Assembly: GCA_947471565.1 (NCBI GenBank)
Contig: CANIVT010000007.1
Span: forward strand, 6,909-70,908
Direction: 5' to 3'
Source: Spartobacteria bacterium
Lineage (GTDB): Bacteria; Verrucomicrobiota; Verrucomicrobiia; Chthoniobacterales; UBA6821
DNA length: 64,000 bases
The position numbers and the translations under genes are program-made. Shown piece by piece: positions 1 through 12,215 of the stretch; the first letter of the stretch is position 1; every line of letters begins with the position of its first letter. The notes under the pieces were generated by a model that saw only the letters and a list, made by a program, of their open reading frames with translations, searched no databases and was not told where the DNA came from.

Positions 1-11
1 CACGGCAGGGA

Positions 12-26
12 GGACACAGAGCGTCC
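12..26. promoter_or_regulatory. GGAC-N7-GTCC inverted repeat, candidate WYL operator (copy 1)
   Basis: GGAC-ACAGAGC-GTCC; a second copy lies at 65-79, just upstream of the WYL ATG. Confidence 0.45.
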
Positions 27-44
27 CACCCCTTTCGAACCTTC

Positions 45-79
45 TTGAGTACGCACCGGAAGCAGGACATAACGGGTCC
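45..79 (+). promoter_or_regulatory. sigma70-type leaderless promoter of the WYL gene, overlapped by a GGAC-N7-GTCC site (65-79)
   Basis: TTGAGT(45-50)-N17-CATAAC(68-73)-6 nt-ATG(80). Confidence 0.6.
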
Positions 80-1108
80 ATGCCTCGCGTTTCCTCCAAG
101 CGGTCCGTCCGCCCTTCCAAGTCCTCAAAAGGCGGCCACGGCCGCTCGGCACGACTCCCCATGTTCCGGATCATGCAGATCCACGAGCGCCTCAAGGAGG
201 GGGGATTCCCCAATTGTCAGGCCCTCTCCGACGATCTCGAGGTCTCCTACAAGACAGTCCAGCGCGACATCGACTTCATGCGCGACCAGCTCCAGCTGCC
301 GATCGAATACGACAGCGTCCGCCACGGGTTCCTCTACACACGCGAGGTGAAGAACCTCCCCGCCATGGCGCTTCAGGAGGGGGAAGTCATCGCCCTGCTG
401 GTCGCCCAGCGTGCCGCCGAGCAGTACCGCGGCACACCCTTTGAGAAATCGCTCCGCAACGCCTTCACCAGGCTCATCGAGAGTCTCCCCTCCAAGTCTG
501 AAATCTCCCTCAAGGACCTCAGCGAGGCCGTCTCCTTCCGCCCGCCAGGACCTCCCGCCGAGGATCTGGAGTGTTTCCAGACCCTCTCCAACGCCCTCCT
601 GAAGTCTCAGGAGATCGAGTTCCGCTACCGCAAGCCCGGTGACGGCACAGGAGCCATCCGCCGGGTTCAGCCCTACCACCTCGGCTGCATCGGCGGGATC
701 TGGTACCTCATCGGTCTCGATCTCGGACGCAATGCCCTGCGCACCTTCGCCCTCGCACGCATCGCAGCACCCGCCAACCTCAACCGCCGCTTCACCCGTC
801 CGAAGGACTTTTCACTCGACGACATGCTCAGCGACAGCTTCTCGGCCTTCGAGACAAGGAACGCCCAGCAGGTCCGCATCTTCCTGGACCCGCTCGCCGC
901 GTCACTGACCTCGGAGCGCAAATGGCACCCCTCCCAGAAGATCACCTTCCGGAAGGATGGCTCTGCTGAGTTGACCATGAAGGTCGGCCTCGCCCCCGAC
1001 CTGGAGGCTTGGATCATGGGATGGGGCCCCAGAGCCAAGGTGCTCGCGCCTGTCGCCCTACGCAACCGGATTGCAGCATCCCTTCAGAAGGCCGCGATGC
1101 AGTATTGA
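80..1108 (+). CDS. WYL-domain transcriptional regulator (wHTH-WYL-WCX, PafB/PafC-like)
   Basis: 342 aa; HTH LSDDLEVSYKTVQRDIDFMR; WYL core RRVQPYHL..WYLIG..RTFALARI; C-terminal WIMGWGPRAKVLAP. Confidence 0.93.
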   Translation: MPRVSSKRSVRPSKSSKGGHGRSARLPMFRIMQIHERLKEGGFPNCQALSDDLEVSYKTVQRDIDFMRDQLQLPIEYDSVRHGFLYTREVKNLPAMALQEGEVIALLVAQRAAEQYRGTPFEKSLRNAFTRLIESLPSKSEISLKDLSEAVSFRPPGPPAEDLECFQTLSNALLKSQEIEFRYRKPGDGTGAIRRVQPYHLGCIGGIWYLIGLDLGRNALRTFALARIAAPANLNRRFTRPKDFSLDDMLSDSFSAFETRNAQQVRIFLDPLAASLTSERKWHPSQKITFRKDGSAELTMKVGLAPDLEAWIMGWGPRAKVLAPVALRNRIAASLQKAAMQY

Positions 1109-1110
1109 GA
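953..1110 (+). repeat. 158-bp direct repeat, copy 1 (3' end of the WYL gene)
   Basis: matches 2199-2356 with 3 mismatches, all synonymous. Confidence 0.95.
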
Positions 1111-1117
1111 GGCGTCT

Positions 1118-1294
1118 TCAACGCCCAACAATTTTTGCAATCCTCGCTGAAATCTCGCTCCCCGGGATCCCCTCGACAGCATCCGATCGAATCTCGGCGA
1201 CACGCTCGGCAACCACGTCCTTCCAAGCGGATTCGATACCGAGCTCAATGAATTGCTGCAGGGAATGAGTCTGTCTGTCCATGAGTTCCTCCAT
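1118..1294 (-). pseudogene. remnant of an addiction-module antitoxin (TIGR02574-like), 58 aa, not in the ORF track
   Basis: hand translation ..IESAWKDVVAERVAEIRSDAVEGIPGSEISARIAKIVGR*; N-terminus degenerate; no toxin partner. Confidence 0.6.
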
Positions 1295-1327
1295 TTGCTG
1301 AACTTTAAGTCAAAGCTGGGAGCTTTC

Positions 1328-1954
1328 TCACCGTGAGGCGGCAATGATTTCCCTCCTCACATCGATGTCCCGTCCGAAAAGACGCTGCCACAGCAACCGG
1401 GTGTTCGTGATCGGATCACCGGGAGCCGACTCGTCATAAGCCGGCTTATAGAGATGCACTGCACGGATCAGCGAATCCACCAACTCGTCCTCGGTGGGAT
1501 GGCCAGTTCGTGAAATCACCTCCTCGAATGCCTCAAAGTCCTTCTCCTCACCACGGCTGATCTTGGAAACAAGGATATCGATCGGATGTGGGAAAAGTAC
1601 ATCCAGAGCCTCAAGACGCTCGACATGAGCGCGCATCCGCCAGTCGAGGGCTGTACGGAATGTCCCTAGCGGACAAACTTCCACATACGGCGAACTCAAG
1701 CCCTTGGTAAGACCAGCCTCCTTTAAAAATGCCTCGATGCTCTCATCGGACGCAATGTCCAAATCTCCGCTCATGATAGCGTTGGAAATACCCATCTGAA
1801 GTGGGGAAGAACCAAAGACGACAACCTGAAGATGTTTAAACCCAGGCTCCTTGGAGAGCACACCCGCAGCCTGCCTCAACAGTTGAGCACCCGGAGTGCT
1901 CCAGTCGAGTTCAGGAAACCACCTTGCCCTGTGCCACGGTTCGCTCACGCTCAT
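1328..1954 (-). CDS. DUF6036/AbiEii-like nucleotidyltransferase (putative TA toxin)
   Basis: FGSSPL..SGDLDI (GS..DxD) and HPIDILVSKISRGEEKD motifs; start MSVSEPW chosen. Confidence 0.7.
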   Translation of the reverse strand: MSVSEPWHRARWFPELDWSTPGAQLLRQAAGVLSKEPGFKHLQVVVFGSSPLQMGISNAIMSGDLDIASDESIEAFLKEAGLTKGLSSPYVEVCPLGTFRTALDWRMRAHVERLEALDVLFPHPIDILVSKISRGEEKDFEAFEEVISRTGHPTEDELVDSLIRAVHLYKPAYDESAPGDPITNTRLLWQRLFGRDIDVRREIIAASR

Positions 1955-2141
1955 AATCCAGCCCCTTGTAGGCACAAAGGCAGGCCAAAGCTTGATCCAG
2001 CAATCTCGGAGTCACCGAGGGATCCCTTTCCAGCTTTCCGACCAATGCCTCCCAGCGACTACCCAGACGCCTTCCTTTCGTCAGGACAACCGACTTCCTC
2101 CAGCTAGGGCTGGCTGAAATCTTGGACGGATTAATCTTCAT
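1911..2141 (-). CDS. small hypothetical protein, probable partner of the DUF6036 gene
   Basis: 76 aa; overlaps the downstream gene; TTGAAT exactly 35 nt upstream of the ATG. Confidence 0.55.
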   Translation of the reverse strand: MKINPSKISASPSWRKSVVLTKGRRLGSRWEALVGKLERDPSVTPRLLDQALACLCAYKGLDYERERTVAQGKVVS

Positions 2142-2198
2142 GCCTACCCAATCCTCCAAAACCATGCCACATTCAAGCTAATCCCGTCACATCAGGAC

Positions 2199-2356
2199 AA
2201 GGATGGCTCCGCTGAGTTGACCATGAAGGTCGGCCTCGCCCCCGACCTGGAGGCTTGGATCATGGGATGGGGCCCCAGAGCCAAGGTGCTCGCGCCTGTC
2301 GCCCTCCGCAACCGGATTGCAGCATCCCTTCAGAAGGCCGCGATGCAGTACTGAGA
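2199..2356 (+). repeat. 158-bp direct repeat, copy 2 (orphan WYL 3' end, KDGSAE...AAMQY*)
   Basis: 155/158 identical to 953-1110. Confidence 0.95.
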
Positions 2357-2368
2357 AAGTTCCTATCC

Positions 2369-2400
2369 CCCTCGACTCCCGTACAGCCGAATGTCTCGCG
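2369..2400 (+). repeat. 32-bp imperfect direct repeat, copy 1
   Basis: ccctcgactcccgtacagccgaatgtctcgcg; 29/32 identical to 3229-3260. Confidence 0.85.
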
Positions 2401-2465: not shown

Positions 2466-2907
2466 TCAGGCAGGAGCTAAAGTAGCGCGGATTTTCAGAT
2501 CCGTTGCGACAATGAAGCCCTTGGTCCATGAGCGCGCCTCCTCCATGGCGAAGAGTGCAGATATCCTCTCCTCAAGGGCACGCCTTGAAGGGTCGCGCAT
2601 CCTGATCAGCAGGATCCCATGATGCGTTCCGGGAGCGAATTTACGGATATCGGAGAAATCCAGATCTTGGGTGATCAGGAAGCGTCCATCCATTTGGGCT
2701 CTTTCCCAGACGATCGCATCGGGTTTGCCATTGACCCCTTCATCCTCAACTGTGTCGGTTTCATGGCCAAGCCGCGACAGAATCCCCACCAGGGTGGCAG
2801 GCAAGTTTTGTATGCTGCTCTCCCCCGAGAGAAGCACCCTTCGGGTCTGGCTTCGCCAGCTACAACTCAGCCTACCTTGGCCTCGTTTCATCCAGCTTGA
2901 TCCTCAC
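2466..2907 (-). pseudogene. DUF5615 PIN-like toxin interrupted by a 79-bp insertion
   Basis: GTG at 2907 gives MRIKLDE, then the insert (2808-2886), then NLPATLVGILSRLGH..LITQDLDFSD; the original frame hits TAG inside the insert. Confidence 0.8.
2808..2886. mobile_element. 79-bp palindrome-rich insertion (REP/MITE-like), possible 3-bp TTT target duplication
   Basis: splits the conserved LDE/NL motif; hairpins CCC-TTC-GGG, CTGGC-TTC-GCCAG and TCTC-CCCC-GAGA. Confidence 0.6.
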
Positions 2908-3143
2908 GCCGCTACCGGGACGGGTGGCAAGGGAAGATCCTCCTCGGCTGAGGAAGCAGCATAGGCAATCACAGCCCGAATAGCCTCATAGGAAAGGGTC
3001 GGAAATGCCTTGAGGATCTCCTCGATGGAGTCTCCCTCTGCAAGCGATGCCAGAACGGTACGCAGAGTCACCCTGGTTCCCCGGATCACGGGTTGTCCCC
3101 CGCAGATCAACTTGTCGGAAACAATGTAATCCTTGAATGACAT
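2904..3143 (-). CDS. DUF433 family antitoxin
   Basis: ICGGQPVIRGTRVTLRTVLASLAEGDSIEEILKAFPTL; stop overlaps the toxin GTG. Confidence 0.92.
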   Translation of the reverse strand: MSFKDYIVSDKLICGGQPVIRGTRVTLRTVLASLAEGDSIEEILKAFPTLSYEAIRAVIAYAASSAEEDLPLPPVPVAA

Positions 3144-3228: not shown

Positions 3229-3260
3229 CCCTCGACTCCCGTTCAGCCCAATGTCACGCG
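3229..3260 (+). repeat. 32-bp imperfect direct repeat, copy 2
   Basis: ccctcgactcccgttcagcccaatgtcacgcg. Confidence 0.85.
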
Positions 3261-3346: not shown

Positions 3347-3405
3347 GGACACTCAGCGACCTAGCCGGTCGGTATCATTGTGGGCAACGGGGACACCGAG
3401 TTTCC
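3347..3405. promoter_or_regulatory. two imperfect GGAC-N7-GTCC sites upstream of the vWA gene
   Basis: GGAC-ACTCAGC-GACC (3347-3361) and GGAC-ACCGAGT-TTCC (3391-3405). Confidence 0.35.
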
Positions 3406-3427
3406 GACACACCACCACCTCATCCCC

Positions 3428-4114
3428 ATGACCGAACACAATCCCGCCACAAACAAACTCACTGAAATCGCCTTCATCCTCGACCAGTCGGGTTCCATGG
3501 AATCCATCAAACAGGGTACCATTGAGGGTTTTAATGCGTTCCTCTCCCAGCAACAGGAGGAGAATGACAAGTATCCGGCCCTCTTTTCGCTTACCCTTTT
3601 CAATGCCGGCATCAACGAAGTCATCACTTCGGAACCGGTGGCGAAGGTCTCTACTCTGGACTCCCACAACTACAGACCTTCGGGTGGAACGGCCCTTCTC
3701 GATGCCATCGGACTCACCATCGACAGCCTCGGCAAGCGCCTGGCAGAGACACCTGAACCCGATCGCCCCGCGAAGGTCATTGTGGCCATCATGACCGATG
3801 GCGAGGAGAACTCCTCCAGACAGTTCACCTGGACTCAGGTCAGTGACAAGATCAAGCACCAGAGTGAGGTCTACAAGTGGGAGTTCCTCTTCATGGGAGC
3901 CAACCAGGATGCGATTGCGACGGCCTCGCGGATCAGCATTGATCGCGATAGTGGAGTGAACTACTTCCAACAGGACGGCAGCGCCAGGAAAGTACTCCGC
4001 GCCATGAGTGCCTCGGTCCAATACAGCAAGCGGGCACCCAGGCCACAATGGTCTAAACCATCGTTGCAGGAGATCATGGCCGAGGAAGAGGCCAAGGATC
4101 AGTCCAAGCAGTAA
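3428..4114 (+). CDS. vWA-domain (MIDAS) protein
   Basis: ILDQSGSM, GGTALLDAIG, IMTDGEENSS, FLFMGAN. Confidence 0.9.
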   Translation: MTEHNPATNKLTEIAFILDQSGSMESIKQGTIEGFNAFLSQQQEENDKYPALFSLTLFNAGINEVITSEPVAKVSTLDSHNYRPSGGTALLDAIGLTIDSLGKRLAETPEPDRPAKVIVAIMTDGEENSSRQFTWTQVSDKIKHQSEVYKWEFLFMGANQDAIATASRISIDRDSGVNYFQQDGSARKVLRAMSASVQYSKRAPRPQWSKPSLQEIMAEEEAKDQSKQ

Positions 4115-4165: not shown

Positions 4166-4288
4166 CTGCCCAACTTCAAAAAAAGCCCAAAAAAAACCCT
4201 TGAGGAGGCTCCGGATTGACCCTTGTCGGGAGAACGGCGTAGTAAGGCAGGACTTTTTCAACTCATTGGTATCGGATACCGTGATCTC

Positions 4289-4957
4289 ATGTGCGGCCGT
4301 TTTGTCCGGAAAGGTGAATCGAAGAAGGTTGCTGAGGCCTTAGGGGTCCAAGACGGCGAGGAGAACTGGACGGAAAGCTACAACGTGGCTCCCGGATCCA
4401 CTGTTCCGATCGTCAGGGATGACCCTACTGGCCGGCATATGGCCCCCGCCGTCTGGGGATTCACATCTTCGGGCAGGGGTCCTCTGTTCAATGCCAGAGC
4501 TGAGACCGTTGATAGCCTTCCCAGCTTCCGCGACCACCTACGAGTGAACCGATGCCTGGTCCCCGCCAGTGGCTTTTACGAGTGGAGACCCAGTGATCGT
4601 CAGCCCTTCTACTTCGAGAGGGTGGATGGGCTTCCTCTGGCCTTTGCCGGGATCTGGAAACGAGTCGGCGATCACCTCGAGGCCACGGTCATCACCACCA
4701 CTCCCAACCGCGACATGTCTGCCATCCACGACAGGATGCCGGTGATCCTCTCTTCGGACAGGTGGAGCAATTGGCTCAATCCGGATCCCCTGTCATCAGC
4801 TGAGTCACAGAGTCTCCTGTGCCCGTCACCGGATGGCACCCTGACTCGTTGGCCTGTGAGCAGAGCTGTGGGGAGCATCAGGAACGACACTCAGGGATTG
4901 ATTGAACGGGTGGAGCCACAACCGACGGCTCAGGAGTTGTTTCCCATGTCCTCCTAG
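4289..4957 (+). CDS. SOS response-associated peptidase (SRAP, YedK/HMCES family)
   Basis: N-terminal MCGRF, SYNVAPG, LFNARAET, CLVPASGFYEW, HDRMPVIL. Confidence 0.95.
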   Translation: MCGRFVRKGESKKVAEALGVQDGEENWTESYNVAPGSTVPIVRDDPTGRHMAPAVWGFTSSGRGPLFNARAETVDSLPSFRDHLRVNRCLVPASGFYEWRPSDRQPFYFERVDGLPLAFAGIWKRVGDHLEATVITTTPNRDMSAIHDRMPVILSSDRWSNWLNPDPLSSAESQSLLCPSPDGTLTRWPVSRAVGSIRNDTQGLIERVEPQPTAQELFPMSS

Positions 4958-5073
4958 TGGATCGGAGTTGTTTGGAAACTCTCTCCTCATTTGACTCCAT
5001 GAGCCACCTTCCAATCTCTTTCATAATTTACATTTCCTAGACATTTATAAATATTTGAATAGGTTTTGCAATC

Positions 5074-5664
5074 ATGCCCTTGGTCCTTTCCAAGCTACTC
5101 AAGAAATCGCCGATCCACCGAACGAGCGAACTGGAGTCCCTTGGGCTCTCGCGTCCCCGTCTCAAACTTCTGGTGAAGCAGGGACTCCTAGAGAAGGCGA
5201 GTCGGGGTCTCTACGTGCTCACGGATTCCGGTGCCAGCGAGCATCGGGCCCTTGCGGAGGTTTCCAAACGGATCCCCCACGGGATCATCTGCCTCCTCTC
5301 CGCCCTGCGCTTCCACGACCTTACCACCCAATCCCCCCACGAGGTCTGGGTGGCTCTGGAACGCTCTGCTTGGACTCCCAGGATGGATCATCTCGATCTG
5401 CGGATCGTCCGCTTTTCCGGAGCTTCACTCCACAAAGGCCATGACCGGCATCTCATCGAAGGAGTGCCGGTCCTTGTGACCAACCCCGCCAAGACCGTTG
5501 CCGACTGCTTCAAGTACCGCAACAAGATCGGGGTCGAGGTGGCACTGGAAGCCCTCCGGGAAGTCTGGAACAAACGCCTCTGCACCATGTCCGAGCTGAT
5601 GCACTATGCTCGGATCTGTCGGGTCTCCAACGTCATGAAGCCCTATCTGGAGAGCGTTGCATGA
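5074..5664 (+). CDS. abiEi: type IV TA AbiEi family antitoxin
   Basis: RGLY, GIICLLSALRFHDLTTQSPHEVW, PAKTVADCFKYRNKIG. Confidence 0.9.
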   Translation: MPLVLSKLLKKSPIHRTSELESLGLSRPRLKLLVKQGLLEKASRGLYVLTDSGASEHRALAEVSKRIPHGIICLLSALRFHDLTTQSPHEVWVALERSAWTPRMDHLDLRIVRFSGASLHKGHDRHLIEGVPVLVTNPAKTVADCFKYRNKIGVEVALEALREVWNKRLCTMSELMHYARICRVSNVMKPYLESVA

Positions 5665-6071: not shown

Positions 6072-6252
6072 TCGCCTCCACGGGATCAGGAATGTCCATG
6101 GGGAAGTTTTCCTCCTCATAGCGCTCCACGAGCAGCGCCCACAGCTCCAGCTCCTCCTCCTCTGGCGAACCGGGAGCGGCATCCACTAGCTTCTCGATAC
6201 GGGTGAGCGCACCGGCGAGTTCCTTCCTGTTCTTGATGATCTTGGGTTTCAT
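6043..6252 (-). pseudogene. HigA-like antitoxin, truncated before its HTH; no cognate toxin
   Basis: ELELWALLVERYEEENFPMDIPDPVEAIKFRMEQ then an immediate stop. Confidence 0.8.
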
Positions 6253-6755: not shown

Positions 6756-6993
6756 AAGCGAGATCCTCATTCACCTCGGCAGAGCCGTAGTGACGGGGAA
6801 TCCCCCGCTCGGAGAGAGCCAAACCGAACCGATCCTGACTCATTCCGGCAAGTTCGGCGGCCTTGCCGAACGCAAGCAACTCCCTCTGATACAGCGTCGA
6901 GGCAAGCTCCAACATCACCCTGCCGCGAAGCTCGGGCTCCGGCAGCTTCAATGCCCTCTCAATCTCATCAGGCATCTCGATCATCACAGACAT
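6739..6993 (-). CDS. UPF0175 family protein (partner of DUF3368)
   Basis: LYQRELLAFGKAAELAGMSQDRF..LSERGIP; promoter TTGCGG-N17-TATGCT-6 nt-ATG. Confidence 0.88.
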   Translation of the reverse strand: MSVMIEMPDEIERALKLPEPELRGRVMLELASTLYQRELLAFGKAAELAGMSQDRFGLALSERGIPRHYGSAEVNEDLAYAGGQ

Positions 6994-7161
6994 AAGGTCA
7001 GCATACTGACGGCACCCTAATTCCGCAAGGGGGTTGATCTCAGGCGACCGTCACCTCAGTGGTTACTGCCCCTAGTGGTTACGCTGCATCCGAGTCGAGC
7101 TCGGACTACCTTCGGGAGGATGAAGCCTCGATCCGGAGTTGTTTTGAGAACCCGTCGGGGC

Positions 7162-8133
7162 CTACCGAAACAACTCCAGCTGGTTTCCTCCCCCCAGGGC
7201 GAGGGCATCGATTCCCAGGGCACGAAGGTCGCCGGCAAACTCCTCGGTGAAGCCGTGCACCGTGAAGACCTTCTTGGCACCTGTCTCCTCCACATGCTCG
7301 ATGAGTTCCCCGTGATCCGCATGATCTGACAGGGGGAAAGCCGCATCACACCGGTTGCGATAGATGGCGCTTGAGTCCATGGCCCAGCCACTGATCACGG
7401 CACTGCGGCTCTTCTCAACCTTCTGGCCAGAGAGCCGGGTGTTCGGCGGAATGATCAGCACCTTCCCTGTATGGTTCTTGCCGTCCCAGAGGGTGTACTT
7501 ACCGAGATCGACTCCGTGCTTCCCGTAGACAGCACTCATCACGCCCACGGAACGATGAACCGCCACCTCCATCGCTGATCCGGCGAGGATAGCGAGGAGT
7601 TCCTGGGATTTCCCCAGAGAATAGGCGAGCAGGATTGGTGTCACCCCCTCCGAGAGGGACTGCCTGCAAAAATTCAGGATCTCCTCCCTAACCCGCTCCA
7701 CGGGAGGAAAGGCGTAGCGAAGGTGGCCGAAGGTGCATTCCATCACGAGCGTCCCGGCCTTTGCCGAGGCTGCCTCCTCGCAGGTCAGGCTCTCCCGACG
7801 CTTGAAGTCCCCCGTGTAGAGCAGCCTCCCCTCCTCCGTTTCCACGAGCACCTGCGCCGAGCCGAGGATGTGACCCGCCGGAAGGAGGGTGATCCTCGCC
7901 CTATCCGTGCAGTAGGTTTCCCCGTAATCCAATTCGATCAGGGTGCATCCCGATGGAACAGGCTTCCTGGCCTTCATGAGATCAATCGTGGCAAAGCTCG
8001 CGATCGTGACCGTGTGCCACCCCGCATGATCACTGTGAGCATGGGAGACCACGGCAAGCGGCACCTTGCGCCTGGGATCCAGCCTCAGATCGCATCCGGG
8101 AAGGTGGATGCCGTTCCCCAGCCGTACGTCCAT
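7162..8133 (-). CDS. MBL-fold exonuclease (ligase-associated DNA damage response exonuclease-like)
   Basis: SHAHSDH, AGHILGSA, YTGDF, LVMECTFG, LSDHAD. Confidence 0.88.
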   Translation of the reverse strand: MDVRLGNGIHLPGCDLRLDPRRKVPLAVVSHAHSDHAGWHTVTIASFATIDLMKARKPVPSGCTLIELDYGETYCTDRARITLLPAGHILGSAQVLVETEEGRLLYTGDFKRRESLTCEEAASAKAGTLVMECTFGHLRYAFPPVERVREEILNFCRQSLSEGVTPILLAYSLGKSQELLAILAGSAMEVAVHRSVGVMSAVYGKHGVDLGKYTLWDGKNHTGKVLIIPPNTRLSGQKVEKSRSAVISGWAMDSSAIYRNRCDAAFPLSDHADHGELIEHVEETGAKKVFTVHGFTEEFAGDLRALGIDALALGGGNQLELFR

Positions 8134-8146
8134 GGCTAAAAAGCTA

Positions 8147-9064
8147 TTATCCACAGAAGACATTTCTTCTGTGCCATCCGAGATGTTCTTCGGACGGACG
8201 GAGCATCACCCCATCTAGAAAGTGTAATGGCGCACCGTTCCGAGACTTCAGCCAAGACGCCTCAGGACCCCACTCTGTGAAAACCGTAGGTGCGACACAG
8301 ACACGCTTACTCTCATCAACTGTCCATAGTCCTTCATCAAACATCCAATGCGCATCACGGGTTAGAGCAAGCCCGTTATCGGGATTGTCATTCCGGCTCT
8401 TTGAGAATGCGTGGACATGTGCAGCCTCCACAAGAGTCGCCCCTTTGGAGGTATGGCATCCATAACCAGTGAGAGCGCATGAAAATCTATATTGCGTGAC
8501 CACGACGATCCGGAACCGTGCATCTCTGCCTTTAGACTGATACTCTTGGGAATCTTCCCGCAATTTAAACGCAGCCTTCTGGGCCTCGGCCTTGCCAATG
8601 CCCATGGCTGCAAGTAATCCCTGCTGCTCATGATCAGGAAACCAGCTACGAATAAGTATAAACCTAGCAAGACGCCTAAACGAAGCATCTTGGAGGATCT
8701 CAAAGAAATCCCTGTTGAAACGAACTGATGTTGTAGTATCTGCGGAGTTACTCACTTTTCTATCCAGCCGGAGAGGATCCCAGAAGCCCTGACTTCCTAG
8801 ATGATGAAAAGGAAGATCTAAGCCAGGCCGTCCACCCCACCGCGATTGCACAAGGGACCAATACGAGTCAAACCTTAGACGAAGCTCAGGAGATTTTCCC
8901 AGATTTTGATTTGCTAACTCAGAACTATCTGCCAAATCCAGAATGCATAGCAAAAGGAGGGGTTTGTGAGGGGCAAATCGAGCATTCCCGTTGCCCCTGG
9001 AATTACTAACGTTAGGGCGAAGCTTTTGTAGACGCCCTAACCATAGCTGCTGATTTGCATTCAT
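8147..9064 (-). CDS. HNH endonuclease with an SBD-like N-terminus (putative type IV restriction enzyme)
   Basis: PHKPLLLL..LPFHHL N-domain; EAAHV..DNGLALTRDAHWMFDEG HNH; looks AT-richer than the flanks. Confidence 0.82.
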   Translation of the reverse strand: MNANQQLWLGRLQKLRPNVSNSRGNGNARFAPHKPLLLLCILDLADSSELANQNLGKSPELRLRFDSYWSLVQSRWGGRPGLDLPFHHLGSQGFWDPLRLDRKVSNSADTTTSVRFNRDFFEILQDASFRRLARFILIRSWFPDHEQQGLLAAMGIGKAEAQKAAFKLREDSQEYQSKGRDARFRIVVVTQYRFSCALTGYGCHTSKGATLVEAAHVHAFSKSRNDNPDNGLALTRDAHWMFDEGLWTVDESKRVCVAPTVFTEWGPEASWLKSRNGAPLHFLDGVMLRPSEEHLGWHRRNVFCG

Positions 9065-9129
9065 TAGTACATTCTTTGCAGTAATTTGGTTGTCCAAGAA
9101 CACTTATCTTGCATGTGTGTTTTTATTAC

Positions 9130-9216
9130 GAGACTCGGGAGATCGGATGGAGAGCAAGGCGTGAGAGCGAAGCTGTAGTGAACTACTGCGAGCGAACGAC
9201 AACACAGCTATCCGCC
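9130..9216 (+). repeat. ~87-bp structured dispersed repeat, copy 1
   Basis: 37/50 identity to 12105-12154; shared GGATGGAGAGC and GTAG-loop-CTAC stem. Confidence 0.8.
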
Positions 9217-9737
9217 GATATCCCGAGTCTAACTGATTTGGCCCATTGGAGGGAGCTTTTCACCACCTTCCCCTCTCTATTCACGGTCCCCCTGATCTCC
9301 TGAAGAAGCCCTCTGTATTCTCCAAGAATCCTCAGCGCATCCTCGCCCATCGCCCTTCCCTCAAAGAGCTCCCGGGGTCTTGACTGGAAATCCAATCCGG
9401 CCTGCACGTCCCGAGACATCAGGGGGACTCCCAGGTCAGCATTAGAGAGGAGTAATCTGCGATCCAGATCTACCTCCACAGAGCACCCCTCTATCAGGGA
9501 TAACTCCCCTCCCCCTAGGTCGAGATGGAGGATGGAAATCATCTTCCGCTCCAGATCCCAAAGATCACCGAGCTTCTCCTCAGAGACGCCGAGATTCCGT
9601 AGATCACGAATCTTCCTCAGGAAGGCCTCGTAGCACTCGGGGTACTGCTCAAGAACAGGGAGACCGAACCTTTTACGCATCCTGCTGATCCAGAGGACGG
9701 GGCGGCCGAGCTTTTCTGACAGTTCAGATAGGGTCAT
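9183..9737 (-). CDS. hypothetical protein (N-terminus possibly HTH-like)
   Basis: 184-aa ORF; its 5' end recurs as a diverged copy at 10390-10445. Confidence 0.7.
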   Translation of the reverse strand: MTLSELSEKLGRPVLWISRMRKRFGLPVLEQYPECYEAFLRKIRDLRNLGVSEEKLGDLWDLERKMISILHLDLGGGELSLIEGCSVEVDLDRRLLLSNADLGVPLMSRDVQAGLDFQSRPRELFEGRAMGEDALRILGEYRGLLQEIRGTVNREGKVVKSSLQWAKSVRLGISADSCVVVRSQ

Positions 9738-9747
9738 TGAGGGAGGC
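9692..9747 (-). repeat. 56-bp direct repeat, copy A (5' end of the 9183-9737 gene)
   Basis: 46/56 identical to 10390-10445. Confidence 0.88.
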
Positions 9748-9934: not shown

Positions 9935-10132
9935 ATGAGTATTCAGGAAATCGAAACCGCTGTGGCGAATCTCTCGCCTGAGGAGCTTTCCGTCTTCTCC
10001 GGATGGTTTGAGGAGTTCGTCGCGGACCAGTGGGACCGTCAGATCGAGCGTGATGCGGCGGCCGGGCGCCTGAATGAAGTACTGGAACAGGCCAAACAAC
10101 ATCGGGAAGCGGGTCGCTGTATCCAGCTTTGA
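9935..10132 (+). CDS. putative antitoxin
   Basis: MSIQEIETAVANLSPEEL..WDRQIERDAAAGRL; promoter TTGATT-N17-TAATGT-6 nt-ATG. Confidence 0.8.
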   Translation: MSIQEIETAVANLSPEELSVFSGWFEEFVADQWDRQIERDAAAGRLNEVLEQAKQHREAGRCIQL

Positions 10133-10389
10133 ACCACTACGCCGACCCGGATTTCTGGGAAGCCTATAACAGGCTTCCCGACGTTGTTCGCGAACTTGCT
10201 GATAAGAACTTTGCCCTACTGAAGTCCGATCCCTCGCATCCCTCCCTTCGACTGAAGAGGATCGGGCCGCTCCATTCGGTGCGGGTGGGACTTCACTACC
10301 GTGCACTGGCCTCGGATCACCCAGATGGTCTGCAATGGTTCTGGATCGGTCACCACGCCGACTACGACCGCCTAATCTCCGGGAAATAG
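10129..10389 (+). CDS. RelE/ParE/HigB-like toxin
   Basis: FWEAYNRLP..LLKSDPSHPSL..SVRVGLHYRALA..WFWIGHHADYDRL; TTG start overlaps the upstream stop. Confidence 0.82.
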   Translation: MNHYADPDFWEAYNRLPDVVRELADKNFALLKSDPSHPSLRLKRIGPLHSVRVGLHYRALASDHPDGLQWFWIGHHADYDRLISGK

Positions 10390-10445
10390 AGAGTACGGGG
10401 CGGCCTAGTCGTTCTGAGAGATCTGAAAGGATCATTGAGGGAGGC
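10390..10445 (-). repeat. 56-bp direct repeat, copy B (orphan gene start MILSDLSERLGRPVL)
   Basis: diverged copy of MTLSELSEKLGRPVL. Confidence 0.88.
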
Positions 10446-10545: not shown

Positions 10546-10608
10546 CTAGGAGTTGAGGTCGAGCGTGCCGAAGTTGACGGGGGCTGGATGTAGTAGTAGG
10601 GGTGAAAG

Positions 10609-10824
10609 ATGACTGTCGCTGAGCTCCGCCTGCTGCCATCGGCTGAAAAGCTGAAGATCATTGAAGCCCTCTGGGGTGATCTGGCTGCGGATAGCGACTC
10701 CTTTGAAAGCCCCTCCTGGCATGGTGAGGAACTCCTCAAGACGGAGGTCGCACTGACGTCAGGCACAGTTGAGGTCTTGGATTGGCAGGCTGCCAAGAAG
10801 GAGCTTCGGGCCAGATTTGAATGA
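10609..10824 (+). CDS. addiction-module antitoxin (TIGR02574-like)
   Basis: LPSAEKLKIIEALWGDL..SPSWHGEEL..DWQAAKKELR. Confidence 0.88.
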   Translation: MTVAELRLLPSAEKLKIIEALWGDLAADSDSFESPSWHGEELLKTEVALTSGTVEVLDWQAAKKELRARFE

Positions 10825-11120
10825 GGATCAAGATTCTGAGGTCAGCCCTTGAGGATCTGGCCACAGCAAGGGAGTTCTACGACAGCCAATCCGATGGGAT
10901 TGGAGACTATTTTTTCGATTCTCTTTTCTCCGAGATTGATTCCCTGACTTTGTACGCAGGGATCCATCCGCTCAGATTCGGATACCACCGGATGGTGGTG
11001 CAGAGATTCCCCTACTGCATCTACTATCGCATCTCGGATGAGGTGGCGACGGTGTTCCGGGTGCTCGATGCCCGCAGGAATCCCTCCTGGATCAGAAGAA
11101 GTCTGAGTGAACAACGCTGA
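10821..11120 (+). CDS. RelE/ParE family toxin
   Basis: ALEDLATAREFY..FPYCIYYRI..VFRVLDARRNP. Confidence 0.9.
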   Translation: MRIKILRSALEDLATAREFYDSQSDGIGDYFFDSLFSEIDSLTLYAGIHPLRFGYHRMVVQRFPYCIYYRISDEVATVFRVLDARRNPSWIRRSLSEQR

Positions 11121-11140
11121 GCAGGTCGTCGACGCGCTCA

Positions 11141-11926
11141 TTACTCTCCCTTGGCGAGTCGCGCAGCGTTGTGCGCCGGAAGGCCGGCTTTCTTGAACCG
11201 GGCCCGGGCTTTGCCGATGTCGTAGCTCACACGGCGCATGAGCAGGAGCCGCTGCTCGTAATCGTAGAGTGCGTAGGAGGCGCGTGGGTCGCCATCGCGA
11301 GACTGTCCCACCGAGCCAACATTGACGGTGTAGCGTTTGGAGGGATCCAGGAGGATGGGCTTCTCTCCGGGGGTGAGGCATCGGACGCCGAAGGTCTCCG
11401 GGTTCTCCTCCCAGATGCCGGGAACATGAGTATGTCCGTTGAAGCTGATGAAAGTGCTCTGGGCGGCGAAGTGGGCCTCGGCCTCCGTGGTCTCATGGAT
11501 GTAGTGAAACTCCGGTGGCTCGTTCAGCGAAGCGTGGGACAGGGTGATGGGATCGAGATTCACGGTGATGGGGAGATCCCTGAGCCAGCCAAGCTCGGCT
11601 TTGCTGACCTGCTCCTTGGCGATCTGCAGCGGTTTGCGGACAGGCACATCCCAGTCCTCCTCGAGGATCTTGTCCGCCAGCAGCAGCATGGCCTCGTGGT
11701 TACCCAGAACGGTGACTGCACAGAGGTCCATTACTTTCCTCACGCATGCTCCGGGCTCCGGTCCGTATCCGACGATGTCGCCCAGACAGAGGATCCCCCT
11801 GACCGGAAAGTCACGGAGATCCGCCAGGACCGCCTCGAGGGCGTCGAGGTTGGCATGGATGTCACTGATGAGGGCGAAGAAGTTATGGGTTGGGGTGGTT
11901 GTTTTGGCTTTTTGGGGTATGGGCAT
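11141..11926 (-). CDS. calcineurin-like metallophosphoesterase
   Basis: ISDIHAN, LGDIVGYG, LGNHE, GHTH, NVGSVGQSRDGDPRA. Confidence 0.93.
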   Translation of the reverse strand: MPIPQKAKTTTPTHNFFALISDIHANLDALEAVLADLRDFPVRGILCLGDIVGYGPEPGACVRKVMDLCAVTVLGNHEAMLLLADKILEEDWDVPVRKPLQIAKEQVSKAELGWLRDLPITVNLDPITLSHASLNEPPEFHYIHETTEAEAHFAAQSTFISFNGHTHVPGIWEENPETFGVRCLTPGEKPILLDPSKRYTVNVGSVGQSRDGDPRASYALYDYEQRLLLMRRVSYDIGKARARFKKAGLPAHNAARLAKGE

Positions 11927-11929
11927 GGT

Positions 11930-12000
11930 GAAAATAGGCTCTTAGGCTGAAAGCTCTTAGACTGAAGACTGTTAGGAGGAGCTGAAGGGGAGCTGGGTAA
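11930..12000 (+). repeat. heptamer-like intergenic repeat
   Basis: aaaataggctcttaggctgaaagctcttagactgaagactgttagg. Confidence 0.8.
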
Positions 12001-12104
12001 TGGGGGCGCGTGAAAAACACACACCTCTACCCTTAGGGGAATGAGTCAGAAGTTCTCGCCCGGCTCTTGTGAGTGGAGGTTTTCATTATCGGGATCTGCA
12101 ATTT

Positions 12105-12192
12105 GAGGCTCGCAAGCTTGGATGGAGAGCTAGGCGGTCAAGTGAAGGCGTAGTAGTCCTACGCCGAACACAGACCAACGCGGCTATTCGCC
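12105..12192 (+). repeat. ~87-bp structured dispersed repeat, copy 2
   Basis: GGCGTAG-TAGTC-CTACGCC stem; similar to 9130-9216. Confidence 0.8.
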
Positions 12193-12215
12193 AAGATCGT
12201 GAGACTCACACCTCC

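What the first reader, a model, noticed from the sequence alone, without database searches (positions are those of the whole stretch)
1..12200. Integrase-free TA cassette array threaded through a DNA-damage gene cluster (candidate novel cassette system)
At least six TA modules or remnants sit between genes for ssDNA/abasic-site sensing and repair (WYL, SRAP, MBL exonuclease), an SBD-HNH nuclease and a phosphoesterase, just before lexA. Three cassettes are bounded by direct repeats, five carry a compact self-contained promoter, and no attC, integrase or IS is present. Several toxins are disabled (DUF5615 by insertion, AbiEii by deletion; HigA and one addiction antitoxin are orphaned). Inference: a high-turnover hotspot where ~1-kb promoter-plus-TA units are acquired by homology-anchored recombination, perhaps favoured by DNA damage, and then detoxified.
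Basis: partly seen in the sequence, partly recalled or inferred. Interest (0 to 1): 0.72.

Follow-up and report, generated by a model that had tools for sequence, protein, structure and literature searches.

The report
Recombinase-free toxin-antitoxin insertion hotspot
A 12-kb stretch of a freshwater Verrucomicrobium is a fast-changing hotspot where small toxin-antitoxin genes have been inserted one by one among DNA-repair genes, each leaving a duplicated piece of the target. This insertion mode is already known for restriction-modification genes, so it is not a new cassette system.

Summary
Window 1-12,200 carries eight toxin-antitoxin (TA) modules or remnants. They sit among a PafBC/DriD-type WYL regulator, VWA, SRAP, an MBL exonuclease, an SBD-HNH nuclease and a metallophosphatase, next to lexA.

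- **Mobility genes:** there is no integrase, serine recombinase, IS or attC-like site in the interval.
- **Promoters:** four antitoxin genes start exactly at a leaderless promoter pattern (TTGNNN-17-TANNNN-6-ATG). Shuffled sequence gives 0.24 such hits.
- **Direct repeats:** three single cassettes and one 2.2-kb TA block are bracketed by direct repeats of about 22 to 158 nt. These repeats are copies of the local target: the WYL 3' end, an intergenic stretch, the SRAP-MBL spacer and the first 15 codons of a neighbouring gene.
- **Turnover:** conspecific lake-metagenome strains show an empty site, a replaced middle, and an intact toxin where this strain has a 77-nt insertion.

The best explanation is a hotspot free of mobile-element genes, built by additive recombination. 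This is "insertion with long target duplication", described for restriction-modification genes, followed by toxin decay. The same footprint brackets other TA cassettes elsewhere in this genome.

The link to DNA damage is weak. The lexA adjacency is lineage-specific, and I found no LexA boxes inside the island.

It is a new member of a known kind and of moderate interest.

The parts
80..1108 (+). WYL/HTH/WCX regulator of the PafBC/DriD type. It is a backbone gene and the left edge of the variable island.
   Evidence: Pfam WYL, WCX and HTH_11. PDB phmmer finds PafBC 6sj9 and WYL proteins 7tzv and 8tp8.
953..1110 (.). R1, the last 158 nt of the WYL gene. It is the left copy of the long target duplication around cassette 1.
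   Evidence: the repeat finder family D1, 98% identical to 2199-2356. It is the only other copy in the genome.
1118..1294 (-). Orphan, partial Unstab_antitox antitoxin with no toxin.
   Evidence: Pfam PF09720, profile positions 16-54 of 54, E 9.6e-7.
1328..1975 (-). DUF6036 nucleotidyltransferase, a putative toxin-like gene of cassette 1.
   Evidence: Pfam PF19502. The gene pair is 75-94% identical in six other genomes, always in different flanks.
1911..2165 (-). Small upstream partner ORF of the nucleotidyltransferase. The conserved start is probably near 2141, preceded by GGAGGA.
   Evidence: Conserved together with the nucleotidyltransferase. Homology to relatives ends at about 2192-2196 in all of them.
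2199..2356 (.). R2, a non-coding stub copy of the WYL 3' end. It is the right copy of the duplication around cassette 1.
   Evidence: In strains X14/X15 this stretch has about twice the depth of its neighbours, as expected for two collapsed copies.
2369..2400 (.). D6a, a 32-nt direct repeat to the left of the DUF433/DUF5615 cassette.
   Evidence: 91% identical to 3229-3260. Unique in the genome and in the fetched loci.
2466..2891 (-). DUF5615 (PIN-like) toxin, disrupted.
   Evidence: Pfam PF18480. The alignment with three relatives shows the native start GTG-R-I-K-L-D-E interrupted after codon 6.
2810..2886 (.). 77-nt structured mini-element inserted in DUF5615, specific to this strain lineage.
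   Evidence: Absent in relatives and in conspecific strains X9, X11, X14, X15 and X16. Look-alike copies lie at C14:66.5 kb and C28:10.5 kb, with three hairpins and compensatory changes.
2904..3143 (-). DUF433 antitoxin with a leaderless promoter.
   Evidence: Pfam PF04255. TTGACT-17-TATTGG-6-ATG.
3229..3260 (.). D6b, the right copy of the 32-nt repeat.
3380..4114 (+). VWA-domain protein, a backbone partner of the WYL gene.
   Evidence: Pfam VWA, just under its cut-off. It lies next to WYL in G003, G005 and G006.
4223..4957 (+). SRAP (abasic-site sensor), a backbone gene.
   Evidence: Pfam PF02586, E 1e-56.
4960..4981 (.). Left copy of an imperfect repeat of about 22 nt (core GGAGTTGTTT). It marks the left end of the 2.2-kb TA block.
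   Evidence: Sequence and alignment with 7130-7152. Strain X16 has a single copy and no block.
5074..5664 (+). AbiEi antitoxin/regulator, intact.
   Evidence: Pfam AbiEi_4. Promoter-like site at 5027-5055.
5661..6071 (+). AbiEii toxin, N-terminal third only.
   Evidence: Pfam PF08843, profile positions 1-90 of 238. Homology to relatives ends at 6050.
6043..6252 (-). HigA antitoxin fragment (69 aa). HigB is missing.
   Evidence: The full-length 120-aa HigA with HigB is seen in G001, and full-length HigA in G014, at 91-94% nt identity.
6261..6770 (-). DUF3368 (PIN-like) toxin, intact.
   Evidence: Pfam PF11848.
6739..6993 (-). UPF0175 antitoxin with a leaderless promoter.
   Evidence: Pfam PF03683. 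TTGCGG-17-TATGCT-6-ATG.
7130..7152 (.). Right copy of the ~22-nt repeat. It marks the right end of the 2.2-kb TA block.
7162..8163 (-). MBL/beta-CASP exonuclease, similar to the ligase-associated damage-response exonuclease. A backbone gene.
   Evidence: TIGR04122 at 214 bits, below the 325-bit cut-off. It abuts SRAP in strain X16.
8147..9103 (-). SBD-HNH nuclease, similar to phosphorothioate-dependent restriction enzymes. Accessory and strain-specific.
   Evidence: HNH_2. NF045808 at 100.8 bits, below its 180-bit cut-off. The N-terminus matches SBDHga1, 8h0l. No coverage in X9, X11, X14, X15 or X16.
9183..9737 (-). 184-aa gene of unknown function. Its first 15 codons are one copy of repeat D3.
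   Evidence: No family or PDB match.
9692..9747 (.). D3a: the ribosome-binding site and first 15 codons of the 184-aa gene. Left copy of the repeat.
   Evidence: 82% identical to 10390-10445.
9935..10389 (+). Antitoxin (9935-10132) and ParE-like toxin (10129-10389), intact, with a leaderless promoter.
   Evidence: Pfam ParE_like. TTGATT-17-TAATGT-6-ATG. The same cassette occurs in G005, G006 and G001 in other flanks.
10390..10445 (.). D3b, a stub of a displaced allele of the 184-aa gene (M-I-L-S-D-L-S-E-R-L-G-R-P-V-L). Its own heptamer leader lies at 10446-10522.
   Evidence: Heptamer arrays are genome-wide 5' leaders.
10609..11120 (+). Unstab_antitox antitoxin and ParE toxin, intact, with a leaderless promoter.
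   Evidence: Pfam. TTGACG-17-TAGGGG-6-ATG.
11141..11926 (-). Calcineurin-like metallophosphatase. Absent at this place in the closest relative, G004.
   Evidence: Pfam Metallophos_2. G004 comparison.
12945..13664 (-). LexA, the right flank. Its own LexA box, CGAACAAATGTACG, lies at 13561-13574.
   Evidence: Pfam. The box is conserved upstream of lexA in relatives.

Best explanation
The interval downstream of the WYL regulator gene is a gene-flux hotspot free of mobile-element genes, in a freshwater Chthoniobacterales ("Spartobacteria") genome.

**Backbone and guests**
- A backbone of DNA-metabolism genes is present: an AddAB-like helicase-nuclease just upstream, then WYL, VWA, SRAP and the MBL exonuclease.
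- The 184-aa gene and the metallophosphatase may also belong to the backbone, but both vary among relatives.
- This backbone has been invaded repeatedly by ~0.7-2-kb units. Most are type II/IV TA pairs that carry their own leaderless promoter. One is an SBD-HNH restriction-like gene.

**How each unit got in (inferred)**
- DNA came from a related strain or species in which the unit already lay next to the same backbone gene.
- One end of the incoming DNA paired by homology with the backbone gene.
- The other end was joined illegitimately a little upstream of where the homology ends. Alternatively, a circular copy recombined once with the target.
- Either route leaves a complete donor-type backbone gene, then the cassette, then a stub of the resident sequence.

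**What is shown**
- Each insert is flanked by a direct duplication of unique local sequence, about 22-158 nt long.
- One empty site exists.
- Cassettes are present in some strains and absent in others.
- No recombinase, IS or attC lies in the interval.

**What is further inferred**
- The recombination route itself.
- Uptake by natural transformation.
- Addictive TA units are kept even though the flanking repeats could delete them.
- After insertion, toxins are knocked out first: by a 77-nt mini-element in DUF5615, by a deletion across the AbiEii and HigA ends, and by loss of HigB and of one ParE-type toxin. This leaves orphan antitoxins.
For: 1. **Target duplications.** The repeats are R1/R2 (158 nt, 98%), D6 (32 nt, 91%), D3 (56 nt, 82%) and the ~22-nt SRAP-MBL spacer repeat. 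Each is unique local sequence, and each brackets one cassette or block.
2. **Stub nature.** R2 is the WYL 3' end. D3b is a second start (ribosome-binding site plus 15 codons) of the neighbouring gene, still preceded by its own leader array.
3. **Empty site.** In conspecific strain X16, SRAP joins the MBL 3' end with 14 nt between them (4919 to 7136, skipping 2216 nt). There is one copy of GGAGTTGTTT.
4. **Turnover within the species.**
   - X14/X15 have nothing at 90% identity or more between about 3306 and 12767.
   - The HNH gene and the DUF3368/UPF0175 pair are absent in X9, X11, X14, X15 and X16.
   - The 77-nt insert is absent in all five.
5. **Turnover within the genus.**
   - G004 lacks the metallophosphatase at this place and has two extra intact DUF433/DUF5615 cassettes.
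   - G006 has a collinear 18-kb version with UmuDC.
   - Contigs of many MAGs break right at the island edges.
6. **Minimal units.** The same cassettes recur in unrelated flanks with the same minimal boundaries.
7. **No mobility genes.** No integrase on the contig, only two Xer-like and one weak tyrosine recombinase in the genome, no serine recombinase, no IS-like repeats and no attC cores. The WYL islands of G005, G006 and G001 also lack tyrosine recombinases.
8. **Genome-wide pattern.** Of 29 such repeat pairs in the genome, four lie in the island. Others bracket HTH_3/AbiEii (C1:248 kb), DUF433/DUF5615 (C1:309 kb and C7:101 kb), ORF6N and an AAA_14 ATPase (C12).
9. **Uptake genes.** ComEC and DprA are present.
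10. **Published precedent.** Furuta et al. 2010 (PMC2853133) and Oliveira et al. 2017 (PMC5635113).
11. **Assembly is sound.** Contigs from runs of two studies (X1 and X2) match the window with 0 differences and even depth.
Against: - No donor molecule or junction microhomology could be reconstructed, so the recombination route (one-ended homology plus illegitimate join, or single crossover of a circle) is not resolved.
- Only one of the four duplications has an observed empty site, and its repeat (~22 nt, 10 nt exact) is below the 30-bp threshold used by Furuta et al.
- R1/R2 are shared by all conspecific strains yet remain 98-100% alike. This needs gene conversion or recent spread.
- Homology boundaries coincide to within a few bases in several independent contexts. 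Random illegitimate joins do not predict this unless selection and deletion trim the flanks.
- A tRNA-Gly gene lies at the island edge in G004. In this genome the same tRNA lies at the far side of the AddAB-like genes, with a 117-nt repeat on another contig. Site-specific integration may therefore have shaped the locus at a larger scale.
- ComEC and DprA occur in most bacteria and do not show competence.
- The metagenome evidence comes from assembled contigs, which drop rare variants.
Confidence: 0.62

Rival explanations
1. The region is a degenerate, tRNA-Gly-associated integrative island, or a pile-up of integrase-dependent elements that have lost their integrase. The flanking repeats would be old att-type sites used by a recombinase acting in trans.
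For: - In the closest relative, G004, a tRNA-Gly(GCC) gene sits between lexA/orf12690 and the island, with its 3' end facing the island.
- In this genome the identical tRNA lies at C7:67-142, beyond the AddAB-like genes.
- Its 3' half plus 66 nt is repeated on C14:66560-66676, which is a classical att-like repeat.
- R1/R2 look like an attL/attR pair that restores a gene's 3' end.
- Relatives carry 5-9 tyrosine recombinases each.
Against: - The four repeat pairs inside the interval are four unrelated local sequences of very different length. None is tRNA-derived, so no single att site is reused.
- There is no integrase in the interval, on the contig, or in the WYL islands of G005, G006 and G001.
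- The genome assembly holds only two Xer-like recombinases and one weak hit, and no serine recombinase.
- The tRNA-linked repeat lies outside the WYL-lexA interval.
Confidence: 0.12
2. The repeats and remnants are purely internal rearrangements, with no horizontal input. Tandem duplications were followed by partial deletions and gene conversion in a region of relaxed selection.
For: - Joints that go back by 693 and 634 nt in X9 and X20 suggest tandem copies of the ParE-like unit.
- R1/R2 stay 98-100% alike, which points to ongoing gene conversion.
- Truncations at 6046-6055 look like a single deletion across two convergent gene ends.
Against: - A tandem duplication would copy the cassette itself, not only the target.
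- The cassettes have no second copy in the genome.
- The same cassettes occur at 75-94% identity in other species in different flanks, sometimes more similar than the flanking core genes. The nucleotidyltransferase is 94% identical to G004 against 85% for WYL. HigA' is 94% identical to G001, whose WYL gene is about 71-75% identical.
- G+C of the interval is 0.54-0.58 against 0.63-0.65 in the flanks.
Confidence: 0.1
3. This is a dedicated, undescribed cassette-mobility system. An unknown enzyme or a cis element moves promoter-plus-TA units with defined ends. Candidates for the cis element are the leader repeat arrays, the 100-nt inverted-repeat element and the 77-nt hairpin element.
For: - Cassette boundaries coincide to within a few bases in up to six unrelated contexts.
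- Short-period repeat arrays and small dispersed elements often lie at cassette borders.
- The pattern recurs genome-wide.
- A 77-nt mini-element has clearly moved recently.
Against: - No motif is shared by cassette ends.
- The heptamer and octamer arrays are ordinary 5' leaders of backbone genes throughout the genome.
- No candidate enzyme travels with the cassettes.
- Sharp boundaries are expected anyway. Any junction inside a promoter or an antitoxin gene of a live TA pair is lethal, and small genomes trim useless flanks.
Confidence: 0.07
4. The arrangement is an assembly or binning artefact: a chimeric MAG contig that joins pieces from several strains.
For: - The genome is a 46-contig MAG.
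- Contig C24 carries paralogous versions of VWA, the metallophosphatase and the riboswitch-ORF module.
- Contigs of relatives break at the island edges.
Against: - Independent contigs from runs of two studies (2019 and 2023) reproduce the window with 0 differences and even depth. They break only at the repeats themselves.
- C24 is only 72-80% identical, so it is a paralogue or another species, not an allele.
Confidence: 0.03

Closest known systems
Insertion with long target duplication of restriction-modification units (Nobusato et al. 2000, Gene 259:99, as cited in PMC2853133; Furuta, Abe and Kobayashi 2010, PMC2853133)
   Same: - An addictive gene unit without mobility genes is flanked by direct repeats much longer than transposon target duplications.
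- The repeats vary in length from case to case.
- The repeat sequence is unique local target, often overlapping the 3' end of a neighbouring gene.
- A related genome has a single copy and no insert.
- The insert has lower G+C.
- Tandem amplification through the repeats has been proposed for those units.
   Different: - The cargo here is type II/IV TA pairs rather than R-M systems, plus one HNH restriction-like gene.
- Several events are stacked within 12 kb.
- The host is a freshwater Verrucomicrobium.
- One of the four repeats is shorter than their 30-bp criterion.
- An empty site was seen for only one event.
[quoted passage not shown] 2017, PMC5635113)
   Same: - Rapid gene turnover is confined to one interval between conserved genes.
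- No integrase or transposase is present.
- Recombination with DNA from relatives is the proposed driver.
   Different: - That model uses double crossover in both flanks, which replaces content and leaves no scar.
- Here the events are additive and leave partial duplicates inside the interval.
- The flanks themselves (lexA, tRNA-Gly, AddAB-like genes) are rearranged among close relatives.
Integron cassette arrays, including TA cassettes of Vibrio superintegrons
   Same: An array of ~1-kb units, many of them TA pairs with their own promoters, stabilising a variable region.
   Different: - There is no IntI.
- There are no attC sites: 0 core pairs against 2.2 expected by chance.
- Genes lie on both strands.
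- Backbone genes are interleaved with the cassettes.
- The repeats are copies of the target, not of a common recombination site.
TA systems as stand-alone genomic islets, such as ccdO157 (Van Melderen and Saavedra De Bast 2009, PMC2654758)
   Same: - A TA pair alone makes up the whole inserted segment between conserved genes.
- Its distribution among strains is patchy.
- It decays to remnants.
   Different: Here many islets are stacked, and their insertion scars (long target duplications) are visible.

Membership tests
Integron / chromosomal cassette array | IntI-type tyrosine recombinase next to the array | tested here: not met
   PF00589 search of the whole assembly gives two Xer-like genes (on C1 and C2) and one weak hit on C10. 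None is on C7.
Integron / chromosomal cassette array | attC site (RYYYAAC ... GTTRRRY imperfect palindrome) after each cassette | tested here: not met
   0 core pairs in 1-13000 on both strands. Shuffled sequence gives a mean of 2.2. No repeat family is shared between cassette ends. IntegronFinder itself was not available.
Insertion with long target duplication (Furuta et al. 2010 criteria) | Insert flanked by direct repeats longer than 30 bp | tested here: met
   158, 56 and 32 nt. The fourth repeat is only about 22 nt, with 10 nt exact, and fails this criterion.
Insertion with long target duplication (Furuta et al. 2010 criteria) | The repeat sequence is a unique target, not a dispersed element | tested here: met
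   R, D3 and D6 occur only at their two places in the genome. The heptamer-array pair was excluded as a dispersed feature.
Insertion with long target duplication (Furuta et al. 2010 criteria) | A related genome has one copy of the repeat and no insert (empty site) | tested here: inconclusive
   - Met for the 2.2-kb block, in strain X16.
- For R, relatives have a single WYL 3' end but different downstream DNA.
- No empty site was seen for D6 or D3.
Insertion with long target duplication (Furuta et al. 2010 criteria) | No mobility genes in the insert; insert shorter than 20 kb | tested here: met
   The inserts are 0.64-2.2 kb and hold only TA genes or remnants.
tRNA-targeted integrative island | Island bounded by a tRNA gene and a direct repeat of its 3' part, with an integrase | tested here: not met
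   - There is no tRNA in window 1-20000.
- tRNA-Gly and its 117-nt repeat lie outside the interval, at C7:67-142 and C14:66560-66676.
- No integrase was found.
- In G004 a tRNA-Gly does border the island, so the larger locus may have such a history.
Type II/IV toxin-antitoxin modules | Adjacent small antitoxin and toxin genes of known paired families | tested here: met
   The pairs are DUF433/DUF5615, UPF0175/DUF3368, Unstab_antitox/ParE, antitoxin/ParE_like and AbiEi/AbiEii. Toxicity and neutralisation were not tested.
SOS (LexA) regulon cluster | LexA boxes upstream of the clustered genes | tested here: not met
   The box CGAACAAATGTACG occurs only upstream of lexA (13561-13574). Neither the strict nor the looser box pattern occurs in the rest of the interval. 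There are six strict boxes in the whole genome.

The most novel reading that the evidence does not exclude
TA cassettes in this lineage may have a recombinase-free life cycle.
- Once a cassette is inserted with a long target duplication, host RecA could loop it out between the two repeat copies, as a circle or as a tandem amplification.
- After cell lysis and DNA uptake, the circle could re-enter any relative that carries the same backbone gene, by a single crossover.
- Backbone gene ends would then serve as portable docking sites, and addiction would protect the insert from loss.
- The "goes back 693/634" joints of the ParE-like unit in two independent metagenomes would be such tandem or circular forms.
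- The many repeat-bracketed TA cassettes elsewhere in the genome would be products of the same cycle.
Probability: 0.12. Interest if true: 0.7.

Novelty: new member of a known kind. Interest (0 to 1): 0.42.

Why it matters
How small TA and defence genes spread to new chromosomal sites without transposases or integrases is poorly documented.

This locus offers an unusually legible record. Four stacked insertions each keep their scar. There is a matching empty site in a wild sister strain, and toxin decay is caught at several stages, including a toxin gene knocked out by a 77-nt mini-element in one strain lineage only.

It extends the "long target duplication" mode from restriction-modification genes to TA pairs, and to an abundant, uncultured freshwater phylum. 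It also shows that the mode operates genome-wide in this organism.

For annotation, short "mini-genes" and duplicated gene ends next to TA pairs should be read as recombination scars.

Tried and rejected
- **Integron reading.** Rejected: no attC core pairs and no IntI.
- **IS or transposon reading.** Rejected: no multicopy repeats of IS size and no transposase family among the ORFs scanned.
- **AGGCTGA and GGTTACAA repeat arrays as cassette-specific recombination sites.** Rejected. There are 29 arrays of the heptamer type genome-wide. In the island they sit as 5' leaders of VWA, the metallophosphatase and the stub gene.
- **The ~100-nt inverted-repeat element (9131-9230, 12104-12212) as a cassette border.** Rejected: about 27 copies are dispersed over the genome and it is present in all relatives.
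- **The 82-aa ORF at 12216-12464 as a truncated integrase** (weak DUF6538 hit). Rejected: its paralogue on C24 is also short, at 96 aa.
- **LexA boxes inside the island.** None found.
- **Known defence systems.** PADLOC models gave only HNH and WYL hits.
- **PDB sequence search of the 184-aa gene and the DUF6036 protein.** Nothing useful.
- **Exact-protein look-up of SRAP.** Returned one 1.4-kb contig, with no context.
- **Pfam tally of 150 ORFs from relatives' islands.** It shows only the top 25 of 87 families, so it cannot exclude rare transposase hits there.

Full report
**Source and setting**

The window is contig C7:6909-70908 of a 2.28-Mb, 46-contig genome. Titles of related records identify it as a freshwater Verrucomicrobiota "Spartobacteria"/Chthoniobacterales MAG. 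G+C is 0.54-0.58 between about 1000 and 13000, against 0.63-0.65 on both sides.

The assembly is sound here. Contigs from public lake-metagenome runs of two studies (X1 from 2019, X2 from 2023) match the window with no differences and even depth. They break only at the repeats described below.

**Gene content**

Backbone-type genes:
- A WYL/HTH/WCX regulator (80-1108). Its nearest solved relatives are PafBC and DriD-type WYL proteins.
- A VWA protein (3380-4114).
- SRAP (4223-4957).
- An MBL/beta-CASP exonuclease (7162-8163). It resembles the ligase-associated damage-response exonuclease but scores below the curated cut-off.
- A 184-aa gene of unknown function (9183-9737).
- A calcineurin-like phosphatase (11141-11926).
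- LexA (12945-13664).
- Just upstream of the window, an AddA/AddB-like helicase-nuclease pair.

The protein at 8147-9103 is an SBD-HNH nuclease.

Eight TA modules or remnants lie between these genes.
- Intact pairs:
  - UPF0175/DUF3368.
  - A small antitoxin with a ParE-like toxin.
  - Unstab_antitox/ParE.
  - Probably the DUF6036 nucleotidyltransferase with its small upstream partner.
- Damaged or orphaned:
  - DUF5615, next to an intact DUF433.
  - AbiEii, next to an intact AbiEi.
  - A 69-aa HigA fragment without HigB.
  - A partial Unstab_antitox without a toxin.

**Promoters**

The generic sigma-70 scan gave nothing above chance.

Alignments with relatives suggested a fixed layout, so I scanned for TTGNNN-N17-TANNNN-N6-ATG.
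- It occurs four times in 13 kb, each time exactly at an antitoxin start codon (3143, 6993, 9935, 10609).
- Shuffled sequence gives 0.235 hits on average.
- The whole genome has 21 hits. Several are at other antitoxins and several at housekeeping genes.

The cassettes therefore carry a compact promoter of leaderless type, which is an ordinary promoter style of this organism.

**Repeats**

Three cassettes are bracketed by direct repeats:

| Repeat | Length, identity | Coordinates | Brackets |
|---|---|---|---|
| R1/R2 | 158 nt, 98% | 953-1110 and 2199-2356 | Orphan antitoxin plus nucleotidyltransferase pair |
| D6 | 32 nt, 91% | 2369-2400 and 3229-3260 | DUF433/DUF5615 |
| D3 | 56 nt, 82% | 9692-9747 and 10390-10445 | ParE-like pair |

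Each repeat is unique local sequence.
- R1 is the 3' end of the WYL gene, and R2 is a non-coding stub of it.
- D3a is the ribosome-binding site plus the first 15 codons of the 184-aa gene.
- D3b is a second, diverged copy of that start. It is still preceded by its own leader array and cut off by the end of the ParE-like cassette.

A fourth, shorter repeat brackets the 2.2-kb block AbiEi-AbiEii'-HigA'-DUF3368-UPF0175. It is GATC(C)GGAGTTGTTT..., at 4960-4981 and 7130-7152.

Repeat pairs of this kind (at least 30 nt, at least 80% identity, 300-3000 nt apart) number 29 in the genome. Four of them are in this 13-kb stretch, a 24-fold excess.

One of those four (10483-10542 and 11936-11996) is only the AGGCTGA heptamer array. 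Such arrays are a genome-wide feature that sits as a 5' leader of genes. Earlier notes of this scan described the same arrays, and I checked that here. It is not a cassette boundary element.

**No conventional mobility machinery**

- No tyrosine recombinase lies on the contig. The assembly has only two Xer-like genes and one weak hit elsewhere.
- There is no serine recombinase.
- There are no IS-like multicopy repeats.
- There are no attC-like core pairs.
- There is no tRNA gene in the first 20 kb of the window.
- The WYL-adjacent islands of G005, G006 and G001 also lack tyrosine recombinases.

**Comparison within the genus**

WYL and lexA are never on one contig in 22 same-genus MAGs. Many contigs end within 0.3-1.7 kb of the island side of either gene.

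*G004, the closest relative (92-93% protein identity)*
- It lacks the metallophosphatase between ParE and the riboswitch-ORF module.
- It has 2.2 kb of extra DNA with an intact DUF433/DUF5615 pair and a tRNA-Gly next to lexA.
- It has another intact DUF433/DUF5615 pair between WYL and the nucleotidyltransferase, where this genome has the orphan antitoxin.

*G006*
- It has a collinear but 18-kb island: WYL, AddAB-like genes, nucleotidyltransferase pair, UmuDC, VWA, the 184-aa gene, the ParE-like pair and the metallophosphatase.

*G005*
- It has WYL-VWA-DUF433-ParE-like pair, followed by more than 20 kb of other genes, including UmuDC.

*Patterns across relatives*
- The same cassettes recur at 75-94% identity in unrelated flanks. 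Homology stops about 30-50 nt upstream of the first ATG and at the stop codon.
- Some cassette pieces are more similar between species than the flanking core genes. The nucleotidyltransferase is 94% identical to G004 against 85% for WYL. HigA' is 94% identical to G001, whose WYL gene is about 71-75% identical.
- In G005 the ParE-like cassette is again bracketed by a direct repeat. That repeat is a different, adjoining part of the same ancestral region upstream of the 184-aa gene.

**Comparison within the species**

Contigs of other lake metagenomes are 95-98% identical to the flanks and give cassette-level polymorphism.
- Strains in X9, X11, X14, X15 and X16 lack the 77-nt insertion in DUF5615. 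The toxin is therefore intact in sister strains and was knocked out recently in this lineage.
- In X16, SRAP is joined to the 3' end of the MBL gene with 14 nt between them (4919 to 7136). This is an empty site for the 2.2-kb TA block, with one copy of the repeat core.
- In X14/X15, nothing at 90% identity or more lies between about 3306 and 12767, although both flanks and the first two cassettes are present. The middle of the island is replaced.
- The HNH gene has no coverage in any of these five runs.
- In X9 and X20, contigs join 10462 or 10487 back to 9770 or 9854 with about 25 nt between them. This indicates two ParE-like units in tandem, or a circular form. These joints come from short contigs and should be treated with caution.

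**Mechanism**

The footprint is a gene unit without mobility genes, flanked by a direct duplication of unique target sequence. The duplication is long and its length differs from case to case. A relative has one copy and no insert.

This is what Kobayashi's group called "insertion with long target duplication". They described it for restriction-modification units, mostly in naturally competent species, and proposed amplification through the repeats (PMC2853133).

The setting fits the hotspots free of mobile-element genes described by Oliveira et al. (PMC5635113).

I infer additive recombination with DNA from relatives. Homology at a backbone gene anchors one end. The other end joins illegitimately just upstream of where the homology ends. 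Alternatively, a circular copy integrates by one crossover. Either route leaves donor gene - cassette - resident stub.

The divergence between the two copies (2-18%) would then reflect donor-recipient divergence and age. Gene conversion would keep R1 and R2 alike. ComEC and DprA are present, but this is weak support for transformation.

The sharp, coincident cassette boundaries can be explained by selection, because any junction inside a live TA promoter or antitoxin gene is lethal, together with deletion bias. However, they are also the main argument for a dedicated mechanism, which I cannot exclude.

**The pattern is genome-wide**

Other repeat pairs bracket the following:

| Location | Repeat | Bracketed genes |
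|---|---|---|
| C1:248 kb | 110 nt, 89% | HTH_3/AbiEii pair |
| C1:309 kb | 80 nt, 81% | DUF433/DUF5615 pair |
| C7:101 kb | 91 nt, 97% | DUF433/DUF5615 pair |
| C12 | 58 nt, 97% | ORF6N gene |
| C12 | 164 nt, 93% | AAA_14/DUF4143 ATPase |

The two C12 genes lie next to a HEPN/MNT pair and three PIN genes. An earlier follow-up of this scan reached a similar reading for a duplicated hsdR start in a type I R-M locus of the same genome. I did not re-examine that locus.

**DNA-damage theme**

The backbone is plausibly a DNA-damage and repair neighbourhood.
- It holds AddAB-like genes, a PafBC/DriD-type WYL regulator, SRAP and the MBL exonuclease.
- UmuDC lies in the islands of relatives and on the paralogous contig C24.
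- In strain X16, SRAP and MBL are direct neighbours.

But lexA is adjacent only in this lineage and G004. The LexA box I derived from conserved lexA upstream regions (CGAACAAATGTACG) occurs only in front of lexA itself. I found no evidence that DNA damage drives cassette uptake.

**Larger-scale caveat**

The identical tRNA-Gly(GCC) lies at C7:67-142, beyond the AddAB-like genes. Its 3' half plus 66 nt is repeated on C14:66560-66676. In G004 the orthologous tRNA sits at the other end of the block, between lexA and the island.

The whole block may therefore have a history of tRNA-linked integration or rearrangement. This does not explain the internal cassette boundaries.

**Limits**

- Metagenome evidence is from assembled contigs, not reads.
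- Only one empty site was seen.
- Donors were not identified.
Empty sites for the other repeat-bracketed cassettes could therefore not be sought.

**Verdict**

It is a hotspot with compact cassettes, homology-anchored acquisition and detoxification. It is not a new system, and no link to DNA damage was shown.
- Novelty: a new member of a known kind.

Noticed in passing
window 12558-12688 (-), with 12216-12464 (-) and 11141-11926 (-); also L116 (C24) 16254-16383, L103 12087-12217, L112 2099-2229: A SAM-I/IV riboswitch match above Rfam's gathering score (42.6-47.8 bits against 41.1) precedes an 82-aa ORF of unknown function and then a metallophosphatase. This module is present in several diverged copies per genome across the genus. 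Contig C24 also carries a divergent MetK-like SAM synthetase near one copy. This is an unusual regulon for a SAM riboswitch.
   Followed up: partly
window 2810-2886; genome C14:~66480-66560 and C28:~10440-10520: A 77-nt element with three hairpins interrupts the DUF5615 toxin gene in this strain lineage only. The first hairpin has a CGAAG loop, and the three copies show compensatory changes. No Rfam family matches. It looks like a very small mobile or structured element.
   Followed up: partly
window 9131-9230 and 12104-12212: A ~100-nt dispersed element with 16-nt terminal inverted repeats (AGACTCGGGAGATCGG ... CCGATATCCCGAGTCT). It has about 27 copies in this genome and copies at up to 94% identity in every same-genus MAG. 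It is MITE-like, and no Rfam family matches.
   Followed up: partly
genome C7:67-142 (just left of the window), C14:66560-66676; L002 6665-6740: tRNA-Gly(GCC) lies beyond the AddAB-like genes. Its 3' half plus 66 nt is repeated on contig C14, which is an att-like repeat and also the reason the contig ends there. In relative G004 the orthologous tRNA with the same promoter lies instead between lexA and the island.
   Followed up: partly
window 13561-13574: The probable LexA box of this genus is CGAACAAATGTACG, within a larger palindrome (ATATACCGAACAAATGTACGGTATAT) that is conserved upstream of lexA in relatives. Only six strict matches exist in the whole genome, one of them on C24 about 700 nt from umuD.
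   Followed up: partly
genome contig C24 (L116): A 17.7-kb contig carries diverged paralogues (72-80% nt) of the island's VWA, metallophosphatase and riboswitch-ORF module. It also carries UmuD, UmuC, a second metallophosphatase, MoxR-AAA with a CoxE-type VWA, LysR and a MetK-like gene. It is either a second island of the same kind or a piece from another species in the bin.
   Followed up: partly
genome C12:28000-38000 (L118): A second TA/defence array holds ORF6N, an AAA_14/DUF4143 ATPase, a HEPN/MNT pair and three PIN genes. The first two are each bracketed by direct repeats of 58 and 164 nt. The whole contig has low G+C (0.52).
   Followed up: partly
window 3143, 6993, 9935, 10609, and 17 other genome sites: The layout TTGNNN-17-TANNNN-6-ATG also precedes housekeeping genes, including adenylate kinase, dnaE, an IscA-like gene and rpiB. 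Leaderless transcription therefore seems to be common in this organism.
   Followed up: partly
genome C7:100300-103700 (outside the window): A 2-kb intergenic region is built almost entirely of short-period repeat arrays. It holds a repeat-bracketed DUF433/DUF5615 pair and is followed by a HicA/HicB-like pair.
   Followed up: no
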